Shown: positions 1-11,064 of the stretch, piece after piece
Position numbering within the stretch: position 1 is the first letter of the stretch
Layout: each line of letters opens with the position of its first letter
DNA from: a virus
Taxonomy: Duplodnaviria > Heunggongvirae > Uroviricota > Caudoviricetes
Virus record (IMG/VR): IMGVR_UViG_648276661_000004
Location: 1-11,064 of that record
DNA: 11,064 nt
Strand: one strand, 5' to 3'
The notes under the pieces: model-generated
Told to the model about the DNA's origin: nothing
What the model saw: only the letters and a program-made list of their open reading frames with translations
The model's database searches: none
Position numbers and translations under genes: made by a program

Positions 1-690
1 GTGCGCCAAAGATGCGGTGAGGTCTTTCGTTATGCAATCATAACTGGCCGAGCTGAATACAATCCAGCACCTGATTTAGCTATCGCTCTGGCCGTTCCTA
101 AGCAAAAACACCACCCATTTTTATCTGCCGAAGAGTTGCCTTATTTTATTCGAGATCTGGAAGCGTATACCGGCAGCATCATCACAAAAAATGCAACAAA
201 GATAGTTATGCTTACCGGTGTACGAACCCAAGAGATGCGCTTTGCTACATGGGATGAGGTTGATCTTGAAAAAGGTATATGGGAAATCCCAGCAGAAAGA
301 ATGAAAATGCGCAGAACCCATCTTGTGCCATTATCAACGCAGGTAACAGAATTATTCAAGCAACTGAAACCTATCACGGGACATTACCCTTACATTTTTA
401 TTGGCAGAAATAACCGCAGTAAACCGATCTCGAAAGAAAGCGTTTCACAAGTAATTGAGCTGCTTGGTTATAAAGGACGGGCTACTGGTCATGGATTTCG
501 GCATTCTATGTCGACCATACTTCATGAGCAAGGATTTGATAGTGCCTGGATTGAAATGCAATTAGCTCATGTTGACAAAAATAATATTCGAGGTACCTAT
601 AATCATGCTCAGTATATAGAAAAAAGAAGATATATGTTGCAGTGGTATGCTGACAGAATACTTCCCCCTTTATCCAAAACTCCATTATAA
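1..690 (+). CDS. int: Tyrosine recombinase / P4-type integrase, C-terminal 229 aa (5' end truncated by window start)
   Basis: ORF runs from the window edge to TAA at 688-690. C-terminal catalytic region motifs HGFRHSMSTILHEQG and RGTYNHAQYIEKRRYM (conserved Tyr region) are typical of P4-family integrases. It converges on the cargo cassette. Confidence 0.9.
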   Translation: MRQRCGEVFRYAIITGRAEYNPAPDLAIALAVPKQKHHPFLSAEELPYFIRDLEAYTGSIITKNATKIVMLTGVRTQEMRFATWDEVDLEKGIWEIPAERMKMRRTHLVPLSTQVTELFKQLKPITGHYPYIFIGRNNRSKPISKESVSQVIELLGYKGRATGHGFRHSMSTILHEQGFDSAWIEMQLAHVDKNNIRGTYNHAQYIEKRRYMLQWYADRILPPLSKTPL

Positions 691-736: not shown

Positions 737-1270
737 TTACAATCTCCTATTGAGATCATGTTTGTTTTTTTTATTTTTTAGTTCAATTATAAAATTAACA
801 TTAGATGCAATCACAATATAGAGAGCTATAAGCTGTAAATAGCTCAACATTAGCAAAAAAAATATACCAATTGCAACAAAAAAACTTGGAATATGAATAA
901 ACAGCCAAGATTTAATGATGAACGGCTTTAAAACAACTCCTATTAAAAGAAGAGATAACACTATTGCGGATAGTACCACAACACCAACAATGATCTTGAC
1001 TCGCTCACTATCCTCATCTGAAAAAATAGCATCCACTTTTGATGGCTGCGTAATCCTCAATATTGCATTAGGGTATAGATATGCTATCCATATTCCCATA
1101 ATAGTAAAAACCATTACAGAAACATTCTGTAAAATAGAAATTAATGGGTCTAAATCCTGACTTTTAATATCAGAGCGATATGCAAAACTGGCCCAAACAA
1201 TAGCAGCTAATGGAATGATGTGAAGATATTTGAGACGCTCTCGAGTTTTATCTTTCATATACATCACCAA
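737..1270 (-). CDS. Hypothetical multipass membrane protein (4-5 predicted TM helices, basic C-terminal tail), second gene of the cargo cassette
   Basis: 177-aa ORF with hydrophobic segments YLHIIPLAAIVWASFAY, VSVMVFTIMGIWIAYLY, IIVGVVVLSAIVLSLLLIGVVL and WLFIHIPSFFVAIGIFFLLMLSYLQLIALYIVIA, ending KNKKNKHDLNRRL. The maximal ORF begins with TTG at 1270 directly abutting the upstream stop (1271-1273); the true start is more likely ATG at 1264 or ATG at 1258 (GGTGA 5 nt upstream). AT-rich codon usage differs from the backbone. Confidence 0.7.
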   Translation of the reverse strand: MVMYMKDKTRERLKYLHIIPLAAIVWASFAYRSDIKSQDLDPLISILQNVSVMVFTIMGIWIAYLYPNAILRITQPSKVDAIFSDEDSERVKIIVGVVVLSAIVLSLLLIGVVLKPFIIKSWLFIHIPSFFVAIGIFFLLMLSYLQLIALYIVIASNVNFIIELKNKKNKHDLNRRL

Positions 1271-2431
1271 TCAAGAATTCGCCTGTTCTTCGGAGTTCGG
1301 AGAACTTGTTGTAAAGGCAGCTAGTAGATTATCTCTAGTTAAGTGCAAAGCATTCAGAATTCTACTAGTCGTATAAAACCCTGAATCATCATACTGACCT
1401 ACATCACTAACTAATAATGTATTCCTTACAACGAACTCGTTTAACCAACATGTTCCCCCTACACCTTCTTTTCTAAAACCTAAGTTGGCCCAATCACCAG
1501 CACTAACATTATATTCTTCATTGTACGTTTCAAAAATAGAACGCAACTCTTCTCCTGTAGGAGAGGCTTCTATGGTTAATTCAATCTTTCTAGTATCTCT
1601 TGTTACCTCGCTAGAAATGAATGGAAGACCTCTAAAATACCTTGTCCAGCCAGCATCTGGCTGAACTGATGCGCTAATGACATCCCGTTTGACGAAGTGC
1701 GTTATCTGGTTAGCAATTCTATCCAAGTCGGCTTCATTTGTTAATTTTGTATATTGTTCACTATATATCCTAAGCCACAAATTGTCACCCGAAGCAGAAA
1801 TAAAAGATATACTTAAATAATTTCCATTTTTACCTTCCTTCATTTCTCGACGTTTTGGCCTAATATTACTATGTAGTGTCATGAAATCACGAAGATATTT
1901 ATTCATCAGTTCTGTATCTGAAATTGAACTATGGAATTTTATTGATGCAAAAATATTTAAAGAGGGAACAAACCAATAATAAGCGGGCTCACCCCATATA
2001 ACATTTTCACCATCTAACTCTTCATCAGCACTGTACAAACGATCATCACTTAAGGCAGAGTCAGAGCGAATACCATAAACTCCATTCCCATTTCCAATTG
2101 CTCGCCATAAAATTACAACATAATCGCCTGTGCTCTCGTTACGCTCAATTCCCTTCAAGTAAACTTTTTTCCTTGAAGAATACCCGGGAGTATTGTCATC
2201 CCAAAGTAATGTATCTGCCAATGAAGTCCTACTTGAGAACCAAGTATGTAAGGACTCCAGCATATCGGCCATCATCAACGGCTCATAATATGAATCACCT
2301 CTCTTATGGAATCCTAATTGTTTATATTTGAAAAAAGTGACCAGTCCTTCGCTCATTTGCGCACCATTAGTTGAAGTTGAATGCTTCGATTTTAGAGAAA
2401 ATCTAACCAGAAGAAGATGTGTGATGAACAT
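1271..2431 (-). CDS. Hypothetical soluble protein (386 aa), first gene of the cargo cassette; no family recognised
   Basis: Long ORF with ATG at 2429-2431 preceded by AAGGA 9 nt upstream; an alternative start is ATG at 2354-2356 (M26). No canonical Walker A/P-loop seen. Contains a Gly-rich stretch IGNGNGVYGIRSD and an acidic cluster SDDRLYSADEELDGEN. The stop TGA sits directly against the start region of the downstream membrane-protein gene, suggesting translational coupling. Confidence 0.75.
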   Translation of the reverse strand: MFITHLLLVRFSLKSKHSTSTNGAQMSEGLVTFFKYKQLGFHKRGDSYYEPLMMADMLESLHTWFSSRTSLADTLLWDDNTPGYSSRKKVYLKGIERNESTGDYVVILWRAIGNGNGVYGIRSDSALSDDRLYSADEELDGENVIWGEPAYYWFVPSLNIFASIKFHSSISDTELMNKYLRDFMTLHSNIRPKRREMKEGKNGNYLSISFISASGDNLWLRIYSEQYTKLTNEADLDRIANQITHFVKRDVISASVQPDAGWTRYFRGLPFISSEVTRDTRKIELTIEASPTGEELRSIFETYNEEYNVSAGDWANLGFRKEGVGGTCWLNEFVVRNTLLVSDVGQYDDSGFYTTSRILNALHLTRDNLLAAFTTSSPNSEEQANS

Positions 2432-2469
2432 TTAATCATGTCCTTAAATTAATGCAACCTTCGTGCGCA

Positions 2470-2488
2470 GTGCTTTCCCCGCCTCGCC
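2470..2488. other. cos site core: 19-nt P2/P4-type cohesive-end sequence (reverse complement reads GGCGAGGCGGGGAAAGCAC)
   Basis: Plus strand 2470-2488 is GTGCTTTCCCCGCCTCGCC, the reverse complement of the P2/P4 cohesive end as I recall it. It lies between psu and the cargo cassette, where cos sits in P4. The 19-mer is recalled from memory, not searched. Confidence 0.65.
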
Positions 2489-2588
2489 CGCCCGCTTTGC
2501 GGGGCAGTTTTAATGCAGTTGCACTGACACACTCAGACCGCGCCGGGAATGGCGCAGTCTGCAGAAAATGAGGCAGGAAAACGCATGC

Positions 2589-2622
2589 AAAGCCATGCAC
2601 CTTATCGATGCATGGCTTTTTT
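2589..2622. terminator. Intrinsic terminator hairpin downstream of psu (stem AAAGCCATGCA / TGCATGGCTTT, 9-nt loop, T-run on plus strand, A-run on the other side)
   Basis: Perfect 9-11 bp inverted repeat followed by TTTTTT on the plus strand and flanked by an A-tract, so it can act in both directions. It sits 30 bp beyond the psu stop (2653-2655) and probably ends the late sid-delta-psu transcript. The plus-strand orientation is the stronger intrinsic terminator. Confidence 0.5.
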
Positions 2623-2652
2623 CAGTAAAAACAGGCGGATTTTCGGGGAATT

Positions 2653-3225
2653 TTACACAGACTGACGTGATGCCAGTTGCGCACTTTTACGCGAAAAAAT
2701 CATGTTCTGCGCAGGGGTGAATTTTTCACGGCTGTCATCCACCGAAGCCGCGTCAGGCCTGAATCCGATGGTCGTTAAAATGTCGCTATCCTGTGCGGAA
2801 TAATTAATTTTTTCACCCTTTGCAAGCCAGGACAGAAGGGCTTCACGCAGGGCATCTGTGGCACGCTGTATGGCACAGTTTCGGGCAATGGCCGTCAGCT
2901 CACTGTAGCCCATCAGCTCCGGTGCCAGTGCCGCCGCCAGTGCTGTGCCGTGCTGCTGCATAAAATCATTCAGCCGGTCGCGGATGCTGATGTGCTGAAC
3001 GGCTTCATGCGAACGAATATAACGACCGGCGGCCTGATTCACCTGCCATTTTCTGACTTCGATAATATTGCGTAATTCGTCCAGGCGACTGACGTTTCTG
3101 CCTTCCCCGGACAGAAGCCGCAGATATTCCTGTTCGGCCGCAGACAGCTCATTTTTGCGTTGCAGCCATGCTGCTTTGTTATTCTGACAGGTGTCAAAGG
3201 CCTGCTGTAAGGCTGTGCTTTCCAT
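2653..3225 (-). CDS. psu: Polarity suppression protein Psu (190 aa)
   Basis: 190-aa ORF at the last position of the sid-delta-psu late operon. The length equals P4 Psu and the N-terminus MESTALQQAFDTCQ is consistent with my recollection of Psu. Confidence 0.85.
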   Translation of the reverse strand: MESTALQQAFDTCQNNKAAWLQRKNELSAAEQEYLRLLSGEGRNVSRLDELRNIIEVRKWQVNQAAGRYIRSHEAVQHISIRDRLNDFMQQHGTALAAALAPELMGYSELTAIARNCAIQRATDALREALLSWLAKGEKINYSAQDSDILTTIGFRPDAASVDDSREKFTPAQNMIFSRKSAQLASRQSV

Positions 3226-3298
3226 CGTTATCTCTTTCTCATCATGCTGAAGAATAAAAATACGGTGTGCGGCGACGGCCGGTGTTAACCGGCAGCCC

Positions 3299-3799
3299 TC
3301 ATTCCAGACGCAGCGAATATGATTGTGTTTTTAAGCGTACTGGCGGCAGTTCCTGTTTTTCATGCAGGCTTTCTGCCAGTTCGTCCGGCGTGACCGGGCG
3401 GACAATAAAACGGTTGATGGTCTGAAGCGTTTTAAACACCAGACCACATCCCGGATCCGTGCACACATAAAAACGCTCGGTGACTTCCTGAGACAGACGC
3501 CGCGATGTTCTTGACAGTGCAAGGCCTTTACATCTCCGACAACAATATCCGGTAACAAGCATTCTTTTCGGGCGTTTCATACTGCCGGAGGCTGACGTCA
3601 GTGAATCGCGGTATCTCTGTTTGCCTGAAATGTATTCCATTCCTGAATCTTTACAGTCAGAGAAAAAGCTTTCACTCGCTTCAAATGTCGCAGAGCAATA
3701 AATATTCCGGCACTGTGCAATCATTATCTTGGTGCCATCGTCCATGAAATGTGCGCGACGGGTGTGAGCAACATGTCCACACGACGGGCAGTAAATCAT
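3299..3799 (-). CDS. delta: Delta late-gene transcriptional activator (Ogr/Delta zinc-finger family, tandem-domain form, 166 aa)
   Basis: Two Ogr-like Cys motifs: CPSCGH...CRNIYC at the N-terminus and CCRRCKG...CTDPGCG in the second half. The 166-aa length equals P4 Delta. Its ATG overlaps the sid stop in an ATGA arrangement (3796-3799). Confidence 0.9.
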   Translation of the reverse strand: MIYCPSCGHVAHTRRAHFMDDGTKIMIAQCRNIYCSATFEASESFFSDCKDSGMEYISGKQRYRDSLTSASGSMKRPKRMLVTGYCCRRCKGLALSRTSRRLSQEVTERFYVCTDPGCGLVFKTLQTINRFIVRPVTPDELAESLHEKQELPPVRLKTQSYSLRLE

Positions 3800-4530
3800 G
3801 ACAGCAGCCCTCTGGCCTTAAGCTCTGCTGCCTGCTGGTCTATTTTGTCCTGCCACACCTTGCGCTGTGCCGGTGTGCCTGCCACCTCATAATCCATGTG
3901 CGGGAGTGTTGCCGCTGACAGTCCGGTCAGCCGGAGAACCGGCTCGCCGGTGAGGCTGATTTGCATCTGTTTAATTTTCTGTTCCAGCGATGATTTCACC
4001 TGCTGCATGACAGCTTTATCGGGTGCGACGTAGCCCTGATGGCCGGTGGTGTTGGCGAGCGGATTTTCCTGTACCAGGATACTCAGATGCATTGCCCGGA
4101 CAAGCGCCTCACAGGTTTCATTCAGGGCGTGTTCCAGCTCATGCTCTGCATACAGACTCAGAAGGTGATGATGTGCCTTCCGGTAGGCGGTGGCCGTGCT
4201 GTCACACGCCCCTTTCAGGCGTTCACGTTCGAAATTCAGCACCACGGCCAGATTGTCATATTCCTGTACCAGCTCCCGGCGTGCCACGCGCTCAATGCGG
4301 CGCTGTTTCAGCTCGTCGCTCAGGACACCACCGGCTGCACGAAAGGCCGTGCGCCAGTCGTCAGCGTCGTTTCCGTCGGTCTGCGCCAGCACATTTTTTT
4401 CCTGCTCTGCCCGTTCAATGGCCGTGATGGTCTCATCCATCAGGCGGGCGTTCTCAAGGTGGGCGGCTCTGGCCTTTTCCAGTTGTGCCAGTGCGGGTTG
4501 CAGATATTCAGGGATAGTGTGGTCAGACAT
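3796..4530 (-). CDS. sid: Capsid size determination protein Sid (external scaffold), 244 aa
   Basis: Start chosen at ATG 4528-4530 with GAGGAG 7 nt upstream, giving 244 aa, the length of P4 Sid. The ORF track starts 6 codons earlier at a GTG. Coiled-coil-like, charged composition. First gene of the late operon, 4-nt overlap with delta. Confidence 0.85.
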   Translation of the reverse strand: MSDHTIPEYLQPALAQLEKARAAHLENARLMDETITAIERAEQEKNVLAQTDGNDADDWRTAFRAAGGVLSDELKQRRIERVARRELVQEYDNLAVVLNFERERLKGACDSTATAYRKAHHHLLSLYAEHELEHALNETCEALVRAMHLSILVQENPLANTTGHQGYVAPDKAVMQQVKSSLEQKIKQMQISLTGEPVLRLTGLSAATLPHMDYEVAGTPAQRKVWQDKIDQQAAELKARGLLS

Positions 4531-4564
4531 TTTCCGGCTCCTCGTCACTTCAGGTTAAGAAAAT

Positions 4565-4620
4565 TGTGACGTACACCGGACAACAACACGACGTATTGCA
4601 GATGTGCCAGCCCTGACACA
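4565..4620 (-). promoter_or_regulatory. Psid-like late promoter region with two Ogr/Delta-type TGT-N12-ACA dyads (4565-4582 and 4603-4620)
   Basis: Two exact TGT-N12-ACA elements spaced 38 bp centre to centre. With a minus-strand transcription start near 4556 they would be centred near -18 and -55, the arrangement I recall for P4 late promoters. The sid SD and ATG follow at 4545-4528. Confidence 0.6.
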
Positions 4621-4699
4621 GGAGACTCATCCTCACACCGGCAAGCCAGGAAAAGGTCGCAGGAAAAACCGGCTTACTGTTTGTTTTTTTATATTTTAC

Positions 4700-4803
4700 T
4701 GTTCACCTCTGTTCACCTTAATAAAAAAGATAAGTAATACAGTAAGTTAAAGGGTGAACAATCGCAGTAATGACTGTTCACCGTCTGTTCACCACTGTTC
4801 ACC
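4700..4803. repeat. Cluster of TGTTCACC octamer iterons (alpha-protein binding type; ori-like)
   Basis: TGTTCACC at 4700-4707, 4710-4717, 4775-4782, 4786-4793 and 4796-4803, plus the inverted copy GGTGAACA at 4753-4760. The same octamer recurs in the crr-like repeats about 4.8 kb away, as expected for P4 ori/crr. Confidence 0.6.
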
Positions 4804-4907
4804 CGCTCATGGACTTTTTGTGCTGTTTACTACTGTTTGTTTTTATTAATTCGCCGGGAATGAATAAGAAGAAACGATTTGTATTTCACTATAAAAATTA
4901 CAAATTG

Positions 4908-4937
4908 CTTTAAGTGGCTTTAAATGACTTTAAGTGG
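4908..4937 (+). repeat. Three tandem 10-bp units CTTTAAGTGG / CTTTAAATGA / CTTTAAGTGG upstream of vis
   Basis: Direct tandem repeat read from the sequence, in the Psid/PLL control region. Function unknown; a candidate protein-binding array. Confidence 0.4.
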
Positions 4938-4962
4938 GAATGAACAAAAAACACACAACCAT

Positions 4963-4980
4963 TGTAAGGCTGCCGGAACA
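4963..4980 (+). promoter_or_regulatory. TGT-N12-ACA dyad, candidate Delta site of a PLL-like late promoter driving vis
   Basis: Exact TGT-N12-ACA (TGTAAGGCTGCCGGAACA). If centred at -55, transcription would start near 5026, about 57 nt upstream of the vis ATG at 5083. Confidence 0.45.
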
Positions 4981-5082
4981 AATCCCCCCTGTTGCGTCTG
5001 CTGAAAATATTCACAAAATAAAGCGCTACCCGAAGCCGGACGGACTTATCCGGTGCTGTATGGACATTAACGAGGTAGCCCG

Positions 5083-5349
5083 ATGCAAGCTGTTTTTTCT
5101 TCCCCGTCTCCTGCCCCTGTGACGCCACTGATGCCGCTGCCGGACATCACGCAGGAGCGTTTTTTACGTCTGCCGGAAGTGATGCACCTGTGCGGCCTGT
5201 CACGCTCGACCATCTACGAACTCATCCGTAAGGGGGAATTTCCGCCGCAGGTGAGTCTTGGCGGTAAAAATGTGGCCTGGCTGCACTCTGAAGTCACTGC
5301 ATGGATGGCCGGGCGCATCGCCGGACGCAAACGGGGGTACGACGCATGA
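5083..5349 (+). CDS. vis: Vis / AlpA-family DNA-binding regulator-excisionase (88 aa)
   Basis: Helix-turn-helix core [19 protein letters not shown] characteristic of the AlpA/Vis family. ATG at 5083 has GAGG 7 nt upstream. The 88-aa length and the position between the late promoter region and the immunity region match P4 vis. Confidence 0.8.
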
Positions 5350-5384
5350 TGATGCCTGTTCTGCAAAAACTCCCTTTTTCTGGC

Positions 5385-5414
5385 TTGCCTTTTTCCGGCA
5401 TTTGCGGATATAGT
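5385..5414 (+). promoter_or_regulatory. Sigma70-like promoter (TTGCCT - 18 bp - TATAGT), candidate PLE-type promoter for the immunity/early operon
   Basis: -35 TTGCCT at 5385-5390 and -10 TATAGT at 5409-5414 with an 18-bp spacer. It sits 36 bp after the vis stop and about 30 bp upstream of seqA. Confidence 0.5.
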
Positions 5415-5443
5415 TTTTCCGCTGCCGCAAAATCGGCAGCCGG

Positions 5444-5474
5444 GCGTGAGAACCCGAGCAATCTAACGGCGACA
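5444..5474 (+). promoter_or_regulatory. seqA-like antisense target (blocks GTGAGAA ... TCTAACGG complementary to the seqB-like segment at 5641-5663)
   Basis: GCGTGAGAACCCGAGCAATCTAACGGCGACA shares the two blocks GTGAGAA and (T)CTAACGG with seqC (5687-5730). Both blocks are complementary to CCGTTAGA...ATTCTCAC at 5641-5663. Confidence 0.45.
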
Positions 5475-5477
5475 TAT

Positions 5478-5499
5478 GACGCGCCATGCGTCTTTTTTT
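5478..5499 (+). terminator. Hairpin GACGC-GCCAT-GCGTC followed by TTTTTTT: candidate immunity (premature-termination) terminator just after seqA
   Basis: 5-bp GC-rich stem, 5-nt loop and a T7 run on the plus strand inside the operon leader. This fits the termination-based immunity mechanism of P4/P1-type antisense systems. Confidence 0.45.
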
Positions 5500-5589
5500 G
5501 TGTCGCAATCAACGCCACAGAGCGCCAGATTATGGTGTGGCGTGTGGTTTGCCGTGCAGGTATGATCCTGTTTGCAATCGCATGTTATG

Positions 5590-5670
5590 CCACTGAGTCA
5601 ATGGTAGCTCAGGCGGGGCAGCCTCCGGGCTGGCCGGTATCCGTTAGAGCCGGTATTCTCACCCCCGTCT
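5590..5670 (+). ncRNA. Candidate CI-like (C4-family) antisense immunity RNA containing the seqB-like segment; ends are approximate
   Basis: 5641-5663 (CCGTTAGAGCCGGTATTCTCACC) is complementary in two blocks to both seqA and seqC. It lies between the two targets as in P4. The exact 5' and 3' ends cannot be set from sequence alone. Confidence 0.3.
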
Positions 5671-5686
5671 GGGCTATCGCCATCGA

Positions 5687-5730
5687 GCGTGAGAACTCCG
5701 GCGATAGCGTAACCTGCTATCTAACGGAGG
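5687..5730 (+). promoter_or_regulatory. seqC-like antisense target overlapping the ribosome-binding site of the kil/icd-like gene
   Basis: GCGTGAGAACTCCGGCGATAGCGTAACCTGCTATCTAACGGAGG: the GTGAGAA block lies in the loop of a hairpin (GCTATCGCC 5672-5680 pairing with GGCGATAGC 5700-5708), and the CTAACGG block is fused to the GGAGG SD (5726-5730) of the downstream gene. Confidence 0.45.
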
Positions 5731-5738
5731 CTGCCATC

Positions 5739-5936
5739 ATGGCTACAACCCTTACCCCCTCACACCCTGAATTTGTCTTTGTGTTTGCGGCTGTCCGTCG
5801 CGCAGACCGTCATCCCCGTATCTGCATGCTTCGCACCGTCGCCGGTGATGAACGCAGCGCCCGCCGTTCCCTTGTCCGTGACTATGTGCTCTCCCTTGCT
5901 GCCCGTCTGCCGGTGGTGGAGGTGTCCCGTGCGTAA
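5739..5936 (+). CDS. kil: Kil / Icd-like host cell-division inhibitor (65 aa), first translated gene after the immunity RNA
   Basis: ATG at 5739 with GGAGG 8 nt upstream. The 65-aa product starts [26 protein letters not shown]. Position immediately downstream of seqC is as for P4 kil and P1 icd. The upstream part of the 211-aa track ORF (5301-5738) is regulatory and RNA sequence, not coding. Confidence 0.7.
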
Positions 5937-6216
5937 TAAAAAAGCCCCTCAGACCGTCTCAGCGCGTCATGACGCCCGTGAACACCTCAGCATTGAGGCT
6001 TACCATAAGCTCAACCGCGCCAGCGCCGTATCCCAGTTTGTTGGGGGTGATTTGATTCACCGTGAACTCTCCGGCCTGCATCAGCTCTACATTCCGCATA
6101 TTTTCAGCTACCTGAATGAAGATATTGATTTTGTGCTGAATGAGCTGAAAGCCAAAGGCCTGTGCCGCGATTTTCTCGCCCAGCAGAAAGACCGGGGAGA
6201 CAGGACGCATGTTTGA
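5929..6216 (+). CDS. Hypothetical protein (95 aa), GTG start overlapping the kil stop; corresponds by position to the eta/epsilon region of P4
   Basis: The frame has no in-frame ATG at all, so the start is non-ATG; GTG at 5929 overlaps the kil stop codon (GTGCGTAATAA). The stop overlaps the next gene start by 8 nt. Composition matches the backbone. Confidence 0.55.
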
Positions 6217-6664
6217 TTTTCCCCAGCCCGGTGAGATTTACCGTTCTGCCGGTTTTCCCGATGTGGCCGTGGTCGGCATTCTGGAAGACGGTATTCCGTG
6301 GGAAATGCCGTACCGCTGCCCGGACATTGTCTGGAATCCGTACCGCCGTAAATTCAGTATCCTTGTGCGTATCCTCGCCGACGGGCGCACCACAGACATC
6401 CCGCTGGGGCGTTTTCTGCGGGAATTTACCTGTGACCGTCCTGACCTGTTTAAACGCAGCCCCGTAAACCGGCATGCGGTACTGAAAGAAATGGCCGGAG
6501 ACCCGGAATTACAGAAATGGCGGGAGAAATATCTGGATATTTACCCACAGGACCCTGTTCCGGTCAGCCGGGCGGCACCGGTGGCGCGGGAATGGAGGGA
6601 AATTCCCCGCACGGAGTCTGACCCGGAAATCACCCCGGATAACAGTTACCGCAATTATCTGTAA
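6209..6664 (+). CDS. Hypothetical protein, 151 aa (P4 orf151-like by length and position)
   Basis: ATG at 6209 with GGGAGA 8 nt upstream; overlaps the previous ORF stop, suggesting translational coupling. The 151-aa length and position two genes upstream of alpha match my recollection of P4 orf151. Confidence 0.8.
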   Translation: MFDFPQPGEIYRSAGFPDVAVVGILEDGIPWEMPYRCPDIVWNPYRRKFSILVRILADGRTTDIPLGRFLREFTCDRPDLFKRSPVNRHAVLKEMAGDPELQKWREKYLDIYPQDPVPVSRAAPVAREWREIPRTESDPEITPDNSYRNYL

Positions 6665-6737
6665 TTAAAAAACGACACCCGAAAAATTAAATGTGCGTAT
6701 TCGCGCAGGGATACGCACGTCTTCAGGAGACGCAGAT

Positions 6738-6803
6738 ATGCCTTATCAGTTAATGCAACCGGCACGGAATGCAGTCATCTGTCACAGGGAGGAAAACAAA
6801 TGA
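6738..6803 (+). CDS. Candidate 21-codon upstream ORF ([21 protein letters not shown]) translationally coupled to the 106-aa ORF
   Basis: ATG at 6738 with AGGAG 8 nt upstream. Its stop TGA (6801-6803) overlaps the ATG (6800-6802) of the next gene. Not on the ORF track because it is too short. Confidence 0.25.
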
Positions 6804-7120
6804 AAACACCCTTACCGCCCGTCTTACGCGCTGCCCTTTACCGTCGCGCTGTCGCCTGTGCCTGGCTGACCGTGTGCGAACGTCAGCACCGCTACCCGCA
6901 TCTCACCCTTGAATCACTGGAGGCGGCCATCGCCGCTGAGCTGGAAGGCTTTTATCTGCGCCAGCACGGTGAGGAAAAAGGGCGTCAGATAGCCTGTGCC
7001 CTGCTGGAAGATTTAATGGAATCCGGCCCCCTGAAGGCCGCGCCGTCGCTGTCCTTTCTCGGGCTGGTTGTGATGGATGAACTCTGTGCCCGTCACATAA
7101 AAGCGCCGGTACTGCACTGA
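6800..7120 (+). CDS. Hypothetical protein, 106 aa (P4 orf106-like by length and position)
   Basis: ATG at 6800 with GGGAGG 7 nt upstream. Lies immediately upstream of alpha; 106 aa. Confidence 0.8.
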
Positions 7121-7134
7121 AGGAGAACAACACC

Positions 7135-9468
7135 ATGAAAATGAACGTAACCGCCACCGTCAGCCATGCGCTCGGCCACTGGCCGCGTATTCTCCCGGCG
7201 CTGGGGATTCAGGTGCTGAAAAACCGTCATCAGCCCTGTCCGGTCTGTGGCGGGAGTGACCGCTTCCGTTTTGATGACAGGGAGGGGCGCGGCACCTGGT
7301 ACTGCAATCAGTGTGGTGCCGGTGACGGCCTGAAACTGGTTGAAAAGGTGTTTGGTGTCTCCCCGTCCGACGCGGCCACAAAGGTGGCTGCCGTGACCGG
7401 CAGCCTGCCCCCGGCTGACCCGGCAGTGACGGCTGCCGCCGTTGCTGAAACAGACGCTGCCCGGAAGAACGCTGCCGCACTGGCACAAACCCTGATGGCA
7501 AAAACCCGTCCCGGAACCGGTAACGCCTACCTGACCCGCAAGGGCTTTCCCGGCCGGGAATGCCGGATGCTGACCGGCACACACAGAGCCGGTGGCGTGA
7601 GCTGGCGCGCCGGTGACCTTGTGGTGCCACTGTATGACGACAGCGGCGAACTGGTTAACCTTCAGTTAATCAGTGCTGACGGCCGTAAGCGCACCCTGAA
7701 AGGCGGACAGGTCAGGGGCACCTGTCACATCCTTGAAGGACAGAATCAGGCCGGAAAACGTCTGTGGATAGCGGAGGGATACGCGACCGCACTTACCGTG
7801 CATCACCTGACCGGTGAAACGGTGATGGTGGCGCTTTCTTCCGTGAATCTCCTTTCTCTGGCCAGCCTTGCCCGGCAGAAGCATCCGGCCTGTCAGATTG
7901 TCCTTGCCGCAGACCGTGACCTCAGCGGTGACGGCCAGAAAAAAGCCGCCGCAGCCGCAGATGCGTGTGAAGGTGTTGTTGCCCTGCCGCCGGTCTTCGG
8001 TGACTGGAATGATGCCTTCACGCAGTACGGCGGGGAAGCCACCCGTAAGGCCATTTATGATGCCATCCGGCCACCGGCTGAAAGCCCGTTCGACACCATG
8101 AGCGAAGCAGAGTTTTCCGCCATGAGTACCAGCGAAAAGGCCATGCGTATCTATGAGCATTACGGCGAGGCGCTCGCGGTCGATGCCAACGGCCAGCTTC
8201 TGTCCCGCTATGAAAATGGTGTCTGGAAGGTGCTGCCGCCACAGGACTTTGCCCGGGATGTGGCCGGGCTGTTTCAGCGTCTGCGCGCGCCGTTCTCCTC
8301 CGGGAAGGTGGCCTCCGTGGTGGACACCCTGAAGCTGATTATTCCGCAGCAGGAAGCCCCCTCCCGCCGCCTGATTGGCTTTCGTAACGGCGTGCTCGAC
8401 ACGCAGAACGGCACGTTCCACCCGCACAGTCCGTCACACTGGATGCGTACCCTGTGCGATGTGGATTTCACCCCGCCGGTGGAAGGGGAAACGCTGGAAA
8501 CCCACGCTCCCGCGTTCTGGCGCTGGCTTGACCGTGCCGCCGGTGGTCGTGCGGAAAAACGCGACGTGATTCTGGCCGCACTGTTTATGGTGCTGGCAAA
8601 CCGCTACGACTGGCAGCTCTTTCTGGAGGTGACCGGTCCCGGCGGCAGCGGCAAAAGTATCATGGCCGAAATCGCCACCCTGCTGGCCGGGGAGGATAAC
8701 GCCACGTCGGCCACCATCGAGACGCTGGAATCCCCGCGTGAACGTGCCGCGTTAACTGGCTTCTCACTGATACGCCTGCCGGACCAGGAAAAATGGAGCG
8801 GCGACGGTGCCGGACTCAAGGCCATCACTGGCGGCGATGCGGTGTCCGTTGACCCGAAATACCGGGATGCGTACTCCACGCACATCCCGGCGGTGATTCT
8901 GGCCGTGAACAATAACCCGATGCGCTTCACCGACCGCAGCGGCGGTGTGTCACGCCGGCGGGTGATTATTCACTTCCCGGAACAGATAGCCCCGCAGGAG
9001 CGCGACCCGCAGCTTAAGGACAAAATCACCCGCGAGCTGGCGGTCATCGTGCGTCACCTGATGCAGAAATTCAGCGACCCGATGCTCGCCCGGTCACTGC
9101 TTCAGTCCCAGCAGAACTCAGACGAGGCACTGAACATCAAACGGGATGCCGACCCGACGTTTGATTTTATCGGCTATCTGGAAACCCTGCCGCAGACCAG
9201 CGGCATGTATATGGGGAACGCCAGTATCATCCCGCGTAATTACCGTAAATACCTCTATCACGCCTATCTGGCCTACATGGAGGCAAACGGCTACCGGAAT
9301 GTACTCAGTCTGAAAATGTTCGGGCTGGGGCTGCCGGTGATGCTGAAGGAATACGGACTGAATTACGAGAAGCGCCATACCAAACAGGGGATACAGACCA
9401 ACCTGACGCTGAAAGAGGAAAGCTACGGCGACTGGCTGCCAAAATGTGACGACCCTGCGACAACCTGA
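7135..9468 (+). CDS. alpha: Alpha replication protein: primase-helicase with C-terminal origin-binding domain (777 aa)
   Basis: N-terminal zinc motif CPVCGGSD...YCNQCG (primase type), a Toprim-like region, Walker A GPGGSGKS, and a 777-aa length equal to P4 alpha. AGGAG 9 nt upstream of the ATG. TGTTCACC iteron clusters on both sides are its expected binding sites. Confidence 0.95.
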   Translation: MKMNVTATVSHALGHWPRILPALGIQVLKNRHQPCPVCGGSDRFRFDDREGRGTWYCNQCGAGDGLKLVEKVFGVSPSDAATKVAAVTGSLPPADPAVTAAAVAETDAARKNAAALAQTLMAKTRPGTGNAYLTRKGFPGRECRMLTGTHRAGGVSWRAGDLVVPLYDDSGELVNLQLISADGRKRTLKGGQVRGTCHILEGQNQAGKRLWIAEGYATALTVHHLTGETVMVALSSVNLLSLASLARQKHPACQIVLAADRDLSGDGQKKAAAAADACEGVVALPPVFGDWNDAFTQYGGEATRKAIYDAIRPPAESPFDTMSEAEFSAMSTSEKAMRIYEHYGEALAVDANGQLLSRYENGVWKVLPPQDFARDVAGLFQRLRAPFSSGKVASVVDTLKLIIPQQEAPSRRLIGFRNGVLDTQNGTFHPHSPSHWMRTLCDVDFTPPVEGETLETHAPAFWRWLDRAAGGRAEKRDVILAALFMVLANRYDWQLFLEVTGPGGSGKSIMAEIATLLAGEDNATSATIETLESPRERAALTGFSLIRLPDQEKWSGDGAGLKAITGGDAVSVDPKYRDAYSTHIPAVILAVNNNPMRFTDRSGGVSRRRVIIHFPEQIAPQERDPQLKDKITRELAVIVRHLMQKFSDPMLARSLLQSQQNSDEALNIKRDADPTFDFIGYLETLPQTSGMYMGNASIIPRNYRKYLYHAYLAYMEANGYRNVLSLKMFGLGLPVMLKEYGLNYEKRHTKQGIQTNLTLKEESYGDWLPKCDDPATT

Positions 9469-9484
9469 CCCTCATGGCTCATCT

Positions 9485-9510
9485 GACCGGCATCTGCCGG
9501 TCTTTTTTTT
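9485..9510 (+). terminator. Rho-independent terminator of alpha (stem GACCGG / CCGGTC, 6-nt loop, T8 run)
   Basis: Perfect 6-bp stem GACCGG-CATCTG-CCGGTC followed by TTTTTTTT, 17 nt after the alpha stop codon. Confidence 0.7.
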
Positions 9511-9527
9511 ATCCCTGAATTCCCCGC

Positions 9528-9830
9528 AGGTGAACAATCCACTGCTCATCATTCACCGTGTATTCACCCGTTATCACACTGAAATTAAAAGAGAAAAACG
9601 AAAAGTGAACAGTGTGAACAATCAAATCAAAAAAAACTTTTTTCGCCCTGTGTGATTTCAGTGCGGAGGATTAATCCCCTGCACAAGTCACACCGGCAGA
9701 ATGCCGGAGGTGAAGAATCGAATGTTCACCCTTCACCCATTATTCACCACCTATCACTCTGAAATAAAAGGAGAAAAAAGAAAGGTGAACAGTGTGAACA
9801 GTTCTTTCGAAAAAAAATTTTTTTCCTGAG
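9528..9830. repeat. crr-like cis replication region: two ~120-bp direct repeats with 180-bp period, each carrying TGTTCACC/GGTGAACA-type iterons
   Basis: Copy A (about 9528-9646) and copy B (about 9708-9827) align along their length, for example CATTCACCGTGTATTCACCCGTTATCACACTGAAATTAAAAGAGAAAAACGAAAAGTGAACAGTGTGAACA against CCTTCACCCATTATTCACCACCTATCACTCTGAAATAAAAGGAGAAAAAAGAAAGGTGAACAGTGTGAACA. Each ends in an A-run/T-run. This matches the recalled P4 crr organisation of two 120-bp repeats separated by about 60 bp. Confidence 0.65.
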
Positions 9831-10026
9831 TTAACGTGCGTGAAGATACGTGTAAAAATTAATCGATAGATATTATATGTATAAGGATGTGTATAAATGA
9901 ATTATAATAGAAAAATATAAACGATTTGAATCAAATGGTTATATGGCAATTTTGACTCCTGTGATCTTCCGCCAAAATGCCTCTCCTGAACTCTCCCGAC
10001 GTCAACAACACTCCTTCGGAGGCGAC

Positions 10027-11064
10027 ATGTCAGACAAAGACTTAACCCAGCCCCCAGCAGGCGAGTTTATTATGTTTGCCAGCGGTGACGGAAGAGTGCG
10101 TGTTGAATGTCGCTTTGAGTCAGACACAATCTGGTTATCCCAGGCGGCAATGGCTGAACTGTACGATAAAGATGTTCGCACTATTAACGAACATTTAATC
10201 AATATATTTTCCGAAGGTGAACTTGTTCAAAACTCAACCATCCGGAAATTCCGGATAGTTCGCCAGGAAGGAAAACGTCAGGTTTCCAGAGAGATAGACC
10301 ATTACAACCTCGAAGCCATTCTCGCTGTCGGCTATCGCGTTCGCTCGCCTCGAGGCACGCAATTCCGCCAGTGGGCAACGCAGACGCTTCAGGAATACCT
10401 GATCAAAGGTTTTGTGATGGACGATGAGCGGCTGAAGAATCCGCCTGTCGGTTCATCGGTTGTGCCCGACTATTTTGATGAGATGCTTGAACGCATCCGC
10501 GATATTCGCGCCAGCGAGCGTCGGGTATATTTGCGGGTGCGGGAGATCTTTGCTTTAGCTGCCGACTATCAGCCATCGCTTAAAGAAACCACGCAATTTT
10601 TTCAAACCATCCAGAATAAACTGCATTTTGCCTGTACCGGGCATACCGCTGCGGAACTCATCCACAAACGAGCAGATGCCAGCCAGCCGCACATGGGCTT
10701 GACCAGTTATAAAGGTGAAGAGGTACGTAAGGGCGACGTGACGGTGGCAAAAAATTATCTCACCCAGGATGAGGTCAGCGAACTTAATCGCGTGGTTAAT
10801 ATGTGGCTGGACTTTGCCGAGGATCAGGCCCGTCGTCGTCAGCAAGTCTTTTTGCGCGACTGGCAGGATAAGCTGGATCAGTTCCTGCAATTTAACGACC
10901 GAGAGGTTCTACAGGGCGCTGGTAAAATCAGCAAGAAAATGGCCGATGAAAAAGCGCAGGCGGAGTATGTTCAGTTTGCCGAACAACAACGGCGCTTAAA
11001 AGAAGCCGAAGGCGAGAAGGATATCGCTGGTTTGCTACAGTGGAATAAAGAGTCGAAAAAGTAG
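10027..11064 (+). CDS. RhuM-family protein (virulence protein RhuM-like), about 345 aa
   Basis: Conserved RhuM-type N-terminal region (RVECRFESDTIWLSQAAMAELYDKDVRTINEHL ... AVGYRVRSPRGTQFRQWATQTLQEYLIKGFVMDDERLK). Start chosen at ATG 10027 with GGAGG 4 nt upstream; the track ORF begins earlier at 9943 without an SD. Stop TAG is at the window end. Confidence 0.8.
   Translation: MSDKDLTQPPAGEFIMFASGDGRVRVECRFESDTIWLSQAAMAELYDKDVRTINEHLINIFSEGELVQNSTIRKFRIVRQEGKRQVSREIDHYNLEAILAVGYRVRSPRGTQFRQWATQTLQEYLIKGFVMDDERLKNPPVGSSVVPDYFDEMLERIRDIRASERRVYLRVREIFALAADYQPSLKETTQFFQTIQNKLHFACTGHTAAELIHKRADASQPHMGLTSYKGEEVRKGDVTVAKNYLTQDEVSELNRVVNMWLDFAEDQARRRQQVFLRDWQDKLDQFLQFNDREVLQGAGKISKKMADEKAQAEYVQFAEQQRRLKEAEGEKDIAGLLQWNKESKK

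What the first reader, a model, noticed from the sequence alone, without database searches (positions are those of the whole stretch)
4700..4803. ori-like iteron cluster and crr-like 120-bp repeats share the TGTTCACC octamer, about 4.8 kb apart, flanking alpha
TGTTCACC or its complement occurs six times in 4700-4803 and repeatedly inside both ~120-bp direct repeats at 9528-9830, and almost nowhere else that I noticed. This is the arrangement expected for binding sites of the alpha C-terminal domain at ori1 and crr in P4-type replicons. The second cluster lies directly downstream of the alpha terminator.
Basis: partly seen in the sequence, partly recalled or inferred. Interest (0 to 1): 0.4.

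Follow-up and report, generated by a model that had tools for sequence, protein, structure and literature searches.

The report
P4 satellite replication origin and crr

Summary
Observation confirmed and interpretation supported, but nothing new.

**Octamer.** TGTTCACC occurs 9 times in the window against 0.30 expected, and 0 of 200 shuffles reach 9. Six copies lie in 4700-4803 and three in 9524-9823; there are none elsewhere.

**Identity.** Window 2489-9823 is 97.5% identical to phage P4.
- The six-site cluster coincides base for base with P4's annotated 'ori type 1 repeats'; 4660-4805 is 100% identical.
- The two 120-nt repeats (9524-9643 and 9704-9823, 95/120 identical, 60 bp apart) are P4's annotated 'crr 120bp direct repeats'.
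- The binding protein is encoded between them. Alpha is 769/776 identical to P4 alpha, and its origin-binding domain (residues 671-770, PDB 1KA8) is identical. Cnr is 100% identical.

**Context.** The element is a ~10.6-kb satellite integrated at tRNA-Sec. P4 homology runs from cos to the last base of crr.

**Relatives.** In 80 relatives (58-100% alpha identity) the site layouts of ori (++-+++) and of the crr unit (-+++--) are conserved. Iteron variants change together at both sites.

**Small additions.**
- A sixth conserved site per crr unit is not annotated in P4's record.
- ori and the crr units share a converging pair of sites 43 bp apart.
- crr unit A has lost one site relative to P4.

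Interest is low.

The parts
4700..4803 (.). ori (ori1) iteron cluster. Six type I iterons TGTTCACC at 4700+, 4710+, 4753-, 4775+, 4786+ and 4796+, with spacings 10/43/22/11/10.
   Evidence: Coincides with the six 'ori type 1 repeat' features of P4 X51522. Window 4660-4805 is 100% identical to P4. The layout ++-+++ is conserved in relatives down to 58% alpha identity.
4718..4752 (.). 35-bp A+T-rich spacer (83% A+T, against about 50% A+T for the whole window) between iterons 2 and 3. Presumed unwinding region.
   Evidence: composition. Its length and much of its sequence are conserved across relatives. The unwinding role is inferred.
4908..4937 (-). Three tandem 10-bp 'ori type 2 repeats' (CTTTAAGTGG / CTTTAAATGA / CTTTAAGTGG as read on the + strand).
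   Evidence: Annotated in the P4 record at L001 2420-2449 and identical in the window. Function not addressed here.
6800..7120 (+). cnr (ORF106), the copy-number regulator that acts on alpha.
   Evidence: 106/106 identical to P4 ORF106. Pfam DUF5375, E = 2.9e-63. The regulator role comes from my own knowledge of the P4 literature.
7135..9468 (+). alpha gene, encoding the primase / SF3 helicase / origin-binding initiator (777 aa).
   Evidence: 769/776 identical to P4 alpha. Pfam: Zn_Ribbon_Prim, Toprim, D5_N, DUF5906 and Pox_D5.
9145..9444 (+). Coding region for alpha residues 671-770, the winged-helix origin-binding domain that recognises the iterons.
   Evidence: Aligns identically over all 100 residues to PDB 1KA8 chain A, E = 1e-63. 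[quoted passage not shown] 2002), as cited in PMC2777425.
9485..9510 (+). alpha transcription terminator: a 7-bp G+C-rich stem followed by T8.
   Evidence: Annotated 'talpha' in the P4 record.
9524..9643 (.). crr unit A (first 120-nt direct repeat). Sites: 9529- GGTGAACA; 9543+ TGCTCATC (core lost relative to P4); 9550+ CATTCACC; 9561+ TATTCACC; 9604- AGTGAACA; 9613- TGTGAACA. An A8CT6 tract lies at the 3' end.
   Evidence: Corresponds to 'crr 120bp direct repeat' of P4. It differs from the P4 unit at 6 positions, 4 of them inside sites.
9644..9703 (.). 60-bp spacer between the two crr units. Contains a palindrome at 9661-9684 and a hairpin CCGGCAGAATGCCGG at 9693-9707, which runs 4 bp past 9703 into unit B.
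   Evidence: I5. Part of P4's crr feature. No role shown.
9704..9823 (.). crr unit B (second 120-nt direct repeat). Sites: 9709- GGTGAAGA; 9723+ TGTTCACC; 9730+ CCTTCACC; 9741+ TATTCACC; 9784- GGTGAACA; 9793- TGTGAACA. An A8T7 tract lies at the 3' end.
   Evidence: One substitution relative to the P4 unit, outside the sites. P4 homology ends at 9823.
2470..2488 (-). cos 19-nt cohesive-end sequence. This is the left limit of the P4-homologous block and is given only as a context marker.
   Evidence: Exact match to GGCGAGGCGGGGAAAGCAC, with 0 expected by chance. The query 19-mer came from my own memory of P2/P4 cos. Window 2465-2537 also matches P2-family phage DNA, with listed hits at 87-92% identity.
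9945..9983 (+). attR, a repeat of the 3' end of tRNA-Sec. This is the right end of the satellite, about 120 bp after crr, and is given only as a context marker.
   Evidence: A 39-nt direct repeat, 85% identical, of L003 5311-5349, which overlaps the annotated tRNA-Sec. Start-to-start spacing is 10,634 bp.

Best explanation
The two clusters are the two halves of the bipartite replication origin of a P4-type satellite prophage.

**Anatomy.**
- ori (4700-4803) has six 8-bp type I iterons around a 35-bp A+T-rich stretch.
- crr (9524-9823) has two 120-nt units, each with five or six iteron-like sites in both orientations.
- Between them lies alpha, which encodes a single polypeptide with primase, SF3 helicase and a C-terminal winged-helix origin-binding domain.

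**Proposed mechanism.**
1. After excision and circularisation, alpha binds the iterons at both sites through that domain.
2. The two alpha-DNA complexes interact across the 4.8 kb between them, looping the DNA.
3. The helicase is loaded at the A+T-rich DNA of ori.
4. Alpha primes its own leading strands, and replication proceeds without the host initiator.
5. Cnr, encoded just upstream of alpha, restrains alpha to limit copy number.

**Shown here.**
- The sequence identity of every component to P4.
- Non-random clustering of the octamer.
- Conservation of site number, orientation and spacing at both sites across the family.
- Coupled change of the iteron sequence at the two sites.

**Taken from established P4 knowledge or inferred.**
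- Physical binding of alpha to the iterons.
- Looping between ori and crr.
- The cis requirement for crr.
- DnaA independence.
- The role of Cnr.
For: **Octamer enrichment.** 9 exact copies against 0.30 expected, confined to the two sites.

**Match to P4.**
- Window 2489-9823 is 97.5% identical to P4.
- The ori region is 100% identical to P4; crr was aligned.
- Alpha is 769/776 identical, and residues 671-770 are identical to PDB 1KA8.
- Cnr is 106/106 identical.

**Family evidence (80 loci).**
- ori layout ++-+++ with spacings 10/43/21-22/11/10 is kept while the flanks diverge.
- crr unit layout -+++-- with spacings 14/7/11/43/9 is kept.
- GTGAACA is the top 7-mer shared between the ori zone and the crr zone in most loci with at least 79% alpha identity.
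- Position 8 of the iteron (C or T) co-varies between ori and crr: Spearman 0.87, 2x2 table 12/1/0/7, p = 1e-4.
- Position 2 (G or C) does the same in the Pantoea group, rho = 0.56.

**Absence of host initiator sites.** There are no DnaA boxes in or next to either site.

**Literature.**
- A preprint states that crr is essential for replication and, with cos, flanks the non-essential block (10.64898/2026.03.30.715334).
- Alpha's domain order and winged-helix DNA-binding domain are described in PMC2777425.
Against: - Nothing contradicts the assignment.
- No binding or replication experiment exists for this particular element.
- crr unit A has lost the core of one site (TGTTCACC to TGCTCATC) and weakened another relative to P4, so that unit may bind alpha less well.
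- The co-variation statistics are not corrected for shared ancestry. They rest on perhaps 2-3 independent switches.
- The looping step and the reason crr is needed remain mechanistically unresolved even for P4 itself (own knowledge).
- The primary P4 papers could not be read in the library.
Confidence: 0.93

Rival explanations
1. The sites are intact in sequence, but this copy is a domesticated or defective prophage that no longer replicates. On this reading ori and crr are relics rather than working sites.
For: - crr unit A carries 6 substitutions relative to P4, 4 of them inside sites, and one site has lost its core.
- The element sits in the chromosome, and its integration module differs from P4's.
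Against: - The alpha, cnr, psu, delta, sid and alpA/ORF88 reading frames are all intact.
- ori is 100% identical to P4, and the cos 19-mer is exact.
- crr unit B keeps all of P4's sites.
- Many relatives carry only one crr unit, so one unit appears to be enough.
- The att repeats are present, 10.63 kb apart, a packageable size.
Confidence: 0.1
2. crr acts mainly as a negative, copy-number-limiting titration or 'handcuffing' site for alpha. This would resemble the extra iteron clusters of P1, R6K or Vibrio chromosome 2, rather than a positive cis element.
For: - Remote iteron clusters that bind the same initiator often act negatively in iteron plasmids (established knowledge).
- A dedicated negative regulator, Cnr, sits in the same operon.
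Against: [quoted passage not shown]
- A P4 engineering preprint treats crr as essential for DNA replication.
- At least one crr unit is retained next to alpha, or a few kb downstream of it, in most relatives.
- The two roles are not mutually exclusive.
Confidence: 0.08
3. Each crr unit is itself an origin-like helicase-loading site, so the element has several initiation sites rather than one origin plus an enhancer.
For: - ori and every crr unit share a converging iteron pair exactly 43 bp apart across A+T-rich DNA, and each has about six sites.
- P4 is reported to have a second origin that also needs crr (own knowledge: Tocchetti et al. 1999, not readable here).
Against: - The P4 record places the origin at the ori cluster only.
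- The crr spacer has less A+T than the ori spacer and a different sequence (read directly from the sequence).
- No initiation at crr has been reported, as far as I know.
Confidence: 0.07
4. The octamers are operators for transcriptional control. Examples would be control of the divergent late promoters around ori or of read-through past the alpha terminator, with the resemblance between the two sites being incidental to replication.
For: - ori lies in the intergenic region between the leftward sid operon and the rightward ORF88/alpA operon.
- crr follows a terminator.
Against: - No sigma-70-like promoter was found in 4540-5100.
- The protein whose DNA-binding domain matches these sites is a primase-helicase, not a regulator.
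- The annotation and literature assign the sites to replication.
Confidence: 0.03
5. The clustering is due to chance or composition.
For: None.
Against: - 0 of 200 shuffles reach 9 exact matches or 27 one-mismatch matches.
- The 120-nt repeat identity is 95, against a null maximum of 56.
- The sites are conserved in register across genera.
Confidence: 0.005

Closest known systems
Bacteriophage P4 ori (ori1) and crr, with alpha and Cnr (GenBank X51522 / X05623)
   Same: - Six TGTTCACC iterons at identical positions, and an identical 35-bp A+T-rich spacer.
- Identical type 2 repeats.
- Two 120-nt crr units 60 bp apart, directly after the alpha terminator.
- Alpha 99% identical, with an identical origin-binding domain.
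- Cnr 100% identical.
   Different: - crr unit A has 6 substitutions. Site 2 changes from TGTTCACC to TGCTCATC, and site 5 from GGTGAACA to AGTGAACA.
- crr unit B has one substitution.
- There are a few changes just right of the last ori iteron.
- The DNA after crr (attP/int in P4) and left of cos (gop/beta/cII in P4) is replaced by a selC-type integration module and other cargo.
Origins of other SF3-helicase initiators (SV40 large T antigen, papillomavirus E1). Own knowledge.
   Same: - The initiator is itself the replicative helicase and carries a separate origin-binding domain.
- Short recognition sites in opposed orientation flank an A+T-rich stretch, as in the '+ [43 bp] -' module seen here.
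   Different: - P4 needs a second, distant cis site (crr).
- Alpha also carries a DnaG-type primase.
- The sites are 8 bp long and about six per cluster.
- There is no sequence relationship between the sites.
Iteron plasmids with remote iteron clusters (R6K gamma ori with pi protein; P1 incA; Vibrio chromosome 2). Own knowledge plus abstracts listed.
   Same: One initiator binds repeated short sites at two separated loci on the same replicon, and DNA looping between them is the proposed coupling.
   Different: - Those initiators are RepA/pi/RctB-type proteins, not a primase-helicase.
- Their iterons are 17-22 bp, mostly tandem and direct.
- DnaA boxes are usual there and absent here.
Archaeal plasmid pRN1 ORF904 replicon (PMC2777425, PMC4234260)
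   Same: - The same order of activities in one polypeptide: primase, SF3 helicase, C-terminal winged-helix DNA-binding domain.
- An essential cis region downstream of the replication gene (abstract of PMC4234260).
   Different: - The primase is of the prim/pol type rather than DnaG/Toprim.
- No iteron clusters comparable to ori/crr are described.
- The host is an archaeon.

Membership tests
P4 bipartite origin (ori1 + crr, alpha-dependent replicon) | A cluster of six type I iterons TGTTCACC, five in one orientation and one inverted, around a ~35-bp A+T-rich stretch, all within about 105-125 bp. | tested here: met
   The six sites span 4700-4803 with an 83% A+T spacer. The region is 100% identical to P4's annotated ori repeats.
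P4 bipartite origin (ori1 + crr, alpha-dependent replicon) | crr: two 120-bp direct repeats separated by 60 bp, each with type I iterons in both orientations, immediately downstream of the alpha terminator. | tested here: met
   Repeats at 9524-9643 and 9704-9823, 95/120 identical. They align to P4's two annotated crr repeats. The terminator is at 9485-9510.
P4 bipartite origin (ori1 + crr, alpha-dependent replicon) | An alpha protein (primase plus SF3 helicase) with a C-terminal origin-binding winged-helix domain, encoded on the same element. | tested here: met
   769/776 identical to P4 alpha. Residues 671-770 are identical to PDB 1KA8.
P4 bipartite origin (ori1 + crr, alpha-dependent replicon) | The cnr gene (ORF106) immediately upstream of alpha. 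| tested here: met
   106/106 identical to P4 ORF106. DUF5375, E = 2.9e-63.
P4 bipartite origin (ori1 + crr, alpha-dependent replicon) | The same iteron sequence is used at both sites, as expected if one protein reads both. | tested here: met
   Within the window. Across relatives, variants at positions 8 and 2 change together at ori and crr. These tests are not corrected for phylogeny.
P4 bipartite origin (ori1 + crr, alpha-dependent replicon) | Alpha physically binds the iterons, and both sites are required in cis for replication. | not testable with these tools
   This rests on the P4 annotation ('cis required region'), and on my own knowledge of Ziegelin et al. 1993 and Flensburg & Calendar 1987, which the library does not hold.
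P4 bipartite origin (ori1 + crr, alpha-dependent replicon) | The second origin, ori2, inside the alpha gene (oriII replicon). | not tested
   The coordinates of the 36-bp ori2 are not in the GenBank records, and the paper is not held. The P4 alpha/crr record X05623 aligns to window 6782-9823 at 97.7% identity, so ori2 is probably retained.
P4-like satellite (seven-component definition of Moura de Sousa & Rocha 2021, PMC8628076) | [quoted passage not shown] | tested here: met
   The definition is quoted. The P4 record and RefSeq annotation under the match list all seven. alpA and alpha are confirmed by Pfam. The integrase is only partly inside the window (1-690).
Classical iteron plasmid replicon (RepA/pi-type initiator) | A Rep initiator of the RepA/pi family, tandem direct iterons of 17-22 bp, and DnaA boxes at the origin. 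| tested here: not met
   The initiator is a primase-helicase with no Rep family hit. The sites are 8 bp and of mixed orientation. There is no DnaA box at either site.

The most novel reading that the evidence does not exclude
ori and each crr unit may be built on one common, conserved module: a converging pair of iterons exactly 43 bp apart across A+T-rich DNA, with about six sites in all. That would make crr units origin-like alpha-assembly sites related to ori.

In addition, the iteron 'word' has switched at both sites together with a few residues of alpha's winged-helix domain.
- Iteron changes: position 8 (C or T) and position 2 (G or C).
- Alpha residues in P4 numbering: N718 to H/R, K727 to T, L731 to K/R, K750 to N.
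- The pattern holds in two mutually distant lineages, L060 and L083.

This would amount to a natural recognition code that sorts P4-like satellites into replication-specificity (incompatibility) groups. As far as I could check, neither point is in the P4 annotation or in the papers I could read.
Probability: 0.3. Interest if true: 0.35.

Novelty: already known. Interest (0 to 1): 0.1.

Why it matters
**For annotation.** The result settles that this stretch of an E. coli chromosome is a complete P4-type replication module.
- ori, the CI RNA region, cnr, alpha and crr are all present.
- The conserved block of the satellite runs from cos to the last base of crr. Everything outside that block (integrase, att site, candidate defence genes) is swapped cargo.
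- ori and crr could therefore serve as non-coding landmarks for delimiting P4-like satellites. At present these are delimited only by protein genes (PMC8628076).

**For biology.** Nothing here changes what is known. The family-wide conservation of site geometry, and the coupled change of the iteron word at the two sites, only add comparative support to the accepted model that one protein reads both.

Tried and rejected
- **Primary P4 replication papers and a review.** I tried Tocchetti 1999 by DOI, Ziegelin 1993 as PMC413647, the Lindqvist 1993 review under a PMC id given from memory (PMC372931), and a guessed PMC id (PMC104256). None is held. Statements on binding, looping and the sufficiency of one crr unit therefore rest on the GenBank annotation, on secondary citations and on my own knowledge.
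- **Full-text searches for ori1/crr/iteron.** These mostly returned Vibrio and unrelated papers.
- **Structure of alpha 671-777.** A single-sequence AlphaFold2 model, meant to place the specificity-linked residues, had mean pLDDT 42.6. I discarded it and did no fold search.
- **Exact-octamer counting in relatives.** This under-detects sites because many lineages use variant words. I replaced it with TTCAC-core analysis.
- **A crr directly after alpha in the most distant relatives.** In the 58-61% group, about half the loci gave no hit to the crr unit within 4 kb downstream of alpha. Whether they lack crr or carry one too diverged to detect is open.
- **DnaA-box scan.** Matches are at chance level and none lies at either site.
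- **Promoter scan around ori.** Nothing was found. The 'terminator' it reported at 4753-4782 is simply the inverted iteron pair 3/4.
- **tRNA scan of the window.** Empty. The tRNA-Sec target lies just outside the window.

Full report

Yes. TGTTCACC or its complement occurs 9 times in the 11,064-base window, where dinucleotide-preserving shuffles give 0.30 on average and never more than 3.
- Six copies lie at 4700, 4710, 4753 (minus strand), 4775, 4786 and 4796.
- Three lie at 9529(-), 9723(+) and 9784(-).
- There are none elsewhere.

Allowing one mismatch gives 27 matches against 8.5 expected. The excess lies entirely in the same two regions.

The two direct repeats are 9524-9643 and 9704-9823. 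They align without gaps at 95 of 120 positions, with starts 180 bp apart. The best 120-nt self-match in 200 shuffles of 9480-9840 was 56.

- Exact copies: one in the first unit and two in the second.
- TTCAC cores: five and six.

A hairpin plus T8 at 9485-9510 follows the alpha stop codon (9468), and the first repeat starts 14 bp later.

**2. What is it?**

Window 2489-9823 is 97.5% identical to bacteriophage P4. The P4 record X51522 annotates these features, at positions that map onto the window by a constant offset:
- six 'ori type 1 repeat' features inside 'origin of DNA replication';
- three 'ori type 2 repeat' features;
- the alpha gene and its terminator;

Sequence comparison with P4:
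- Window 4660-4805 is 100% identical, covering all six iterons and the spacer. The type 2 repeats at 4908-4937 are also identical.
- crr unit B differs from P4's at one position, outside the sites.
- crr unit A differs at six positions, four of them inside sites. One change destroys the core of site 2 (TGTTCACC to TGCTCATC). Another turns GGTGAACA into AGTGAACA.

**3. The protein that reads the sites is present and unchanged.**

- The 777-aa ORF at 7135-9468 is 769/776 identical to P4 alpha.
- Its Pfam domains are a primase zinc ribbon, Toprim, D5_N, an SF3-helicase region and Pox_D5.
- Residues 671-770 are identical to the 100-residue chain of PDB 1KA8. [quoted passage not shown] - ORF106/Cnr, just upstream, is 106/106 identical to P4's.

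**4. Context.**

At least 80% of the window is found in 42 complete E. coli genomes, and the 15 listed hits are 100% identical.

In strain Combat2C1 the element lies next to tRNA-Sec. The 3' end of the tRNA is repeated at window 9945-9983, 10,634 bp away, so the satellite is about 10.6 kb long and ends about 120 bp after crr.

The 19-nt cos sequence is exact at 2470-2488. P4 homology therefore runs from cos to the last base of crr and stops there.

The P4 block between crr and cos (attP, int, cII, beta, gop) is described as non-essential for lytic growth and as flanked by cos and crr. Here it is replaced by:
- a selC-type integrase;
- two genes matching the PADLOC candidate defence pair PDC-M18A/B.

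Between ori and alpha, Rfam finds the C4/CI immunity RNA, isrK and the a1b1 targets. The element thus looks complete.

**5. Evidence from relatives.**

Eighty loci encoding alpha homologues (58-100% identity) were fetched from genomes of many enterobacterial genera.

*ori.*
- A cluster of about six TTCAC-core sites lies 1.6-2.6 kb upstream of alpha in nearly all loci.
- After alignment, the layout is kept in register while the flanks diverge: two direct sites, a ~35-bp A+T-rich spacer, one inverted site, then three direct sites.
- The commonest spacing patterns are 10/43/22/11/10 and 10/43/21/11/10.

*crr.*
- crr-like 120-nt units are found downstream of alpha in most loci.
- There are two in the P4 clade, often one elsewhere, and some are displaced by 0.7-3 kb of inserted DNA.
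- Aligned units show a conserved layout -+++-- with spacings 14/7/11/43/9, plus an A/T tract at the 3' end.

*Two points I did not find in the annotation.*
- Each unit has a sixth conserved site (CCTTCACC at 9730-9737, CATTCACC at 9550-9557), whereas the P4 record lists five.
- ori and the crr unit share a converging pair of sites exactly 43 bp apart across the A+T-rich stretch.

*Coupled change.*
- Loci whose ori uses TGTTCACT rather than TGTTCACC use the same variant in crr. Spearman is 0.87 and the 2x2 table is 12/1/0/7, p = 1e-4.
- The Pantoea group has C instead of G at position 2 at both sites.
- These statistics ignore shared ancestry, and the number of independent switches is perhaps two or three.
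- Alpha's C-terminal domain falls into two types that track the position-8 variant: N718/K727/L731/K750 against H or R/T/K or R/N. The pattern also holds in two mutually distant lineages, L060 and L083, which are 53% identical to each other.

**6. How it most likely works.**

Alpha binds the 8-bp sites at ori and crr through its C-terminal winged-helix domain. The two nucleoprotein complexes interact, looping out the 4.8 kb between them. The helicase opens the A+T-rich DNA of ori. Alpha then primes synthesis, independently of DnaA. Cnr limits the process.

What is shown here:
- the identity of all parts to P4;
- the statistical reality of the clusters;
- the conserved geometry across the family;
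- the coupled evolution of the two sites;
- the absence of DnaA boxes at either site.

Binding, looping, the cis requirement and the role of Cnr come from the P4 annotation, secondary sources and my own knowledge of the P4 literature, which the library does not hold.

**7. Rivals.**

- A relic in a defective prophage is possible but unsupported. All genes, cos, att and ori are intact, and one good crr unit remains.
- A mainly negative 'handcuffing' role for crr conflicts with its annotation as cis-required.
- crr units as extra origins is suggested by the shared 43-bp module but has no direct support.
- A transcriptional role has no support.
- Chance is excluded.

**8. Comparison and verdict.**

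All sequence-testable defining features of the P4 ori/crr system are met. The features of classical RepA-type iteron plasmids are not.

The finding is correct and already known. Its value is in annotation. The small comparative observations are modest additions, not a new kind of system: the sixth site, the shared 43-bp module, the variable number of units, and the coupled change of iteron and DNA-binding domain.

Noticed in passing
window 737-1270 (-) and 1271-2431 (-): Two genes between the integrase and cos have no Pfam hit and are 'hypothetical' in RefSeq. They match the PADLOC candidate defence pair PDC-M18B (E = 3e-16) and PDC-M18A (E = 2e-34). They occupy the place of P4's gop/beta/cII, the variable cargo position of P4-like satellites.
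   Followed up: partly
window 9945-11064; L003 15945-15983 and 17176-17203: The RhuM-family gene (10027-11064) matches PADLOC PDC-S05 at E = 3e-173. It lies outside the satellite, between the satellite's attR and a further partial repeat of the tRNA-Sec 3' end. It therefore looks like a separate small islet stacked at the same tRNA-Sec site.
   Followed up: partly
window 9824 and 2470-2488: Homology to P4 ends exactly at the last base of crr unit B and, on the other side, at cos. The integrase and att module is of a different (selC) type. The recombination joints of this mosaic thus coincide with the edges of the replication and packaging cis sites.
   Followed up: partly
window 9730-9737 and 9550-9557: A sixth TTCAC-core site in each crr unit (CCTTCACC / CATTCACC) overlaps the end of the preceding iteron. 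Its core is over 90% conserved across 65 aligned units, but it is not annotated in the P4 GenBank record, which lists five sites per unit.
   Followed up: partly
window 4710-4760, 9561-9611 and 9741-9791: ori and both crr units contain a converging pair of sites whose starts are exactly 43 bp apart across an A+T-rich stretch. This distance is nearly invariant in relatives at both loci, although the spacer sequences differ.
   Followed up: partly
window 9543-9550 and 9604-9611: Relative to P4, crr unit A has lost the core of site 2 (TGTTCACC to TGCTCATC) and changed site 5 (GGTGAACA to AGTGAACA), while unit B is untouched. Four of the six substitutions in unit A fall inside sites.
   Followed up: no
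window 9629-9643 and 9808-9823: An A7-8 / T5-7 tract closes every crr unit and is over 90% conserved across relatives. It is not an iteron, and its role (bend, unwinding or protein site) is unknown.
   Followed up: no
window 5408-5684: Rfam finds three RNAs between ori and alpha: C4 antisense RNA (5597-5684, 74.5 bits), isrK (5421-5498, 72 bits) and the c4-a1b1 target (5408-5460). Together they make up the P4 immunity RNA system.
   Followed up: no
loci L012, L029, L030, L034, L037, L042, L058 (downstream of alpha): In some relatives the crr unit(s) lie 0.7-3 kb downstream of alpha instead of directly after it, or an extra pair of units lies further downstream. This implies DNA inserted between alpha and crr, or tandem elements.
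   Followed up: no
loci L004, L005, L006, L040: Short contigs with alpha 98-100% identical to the window are filed under MAGs named Clostridiales, Ferruginibacter, 'bacterium' and Ruminococcus. These are most likely E. coli-derived contigs mis-binned into those MAGs.
   Followed up: no
window 9693-9707 versus 9485-9502: A hairpin CCGGCAGAATGCCGG directly precedes and overlaps the start of crr unit B. This echoes the alpha terminator hairpin GACCGGCATCTGCCGGTC, which precedes unit A (read).
   Followed up: no
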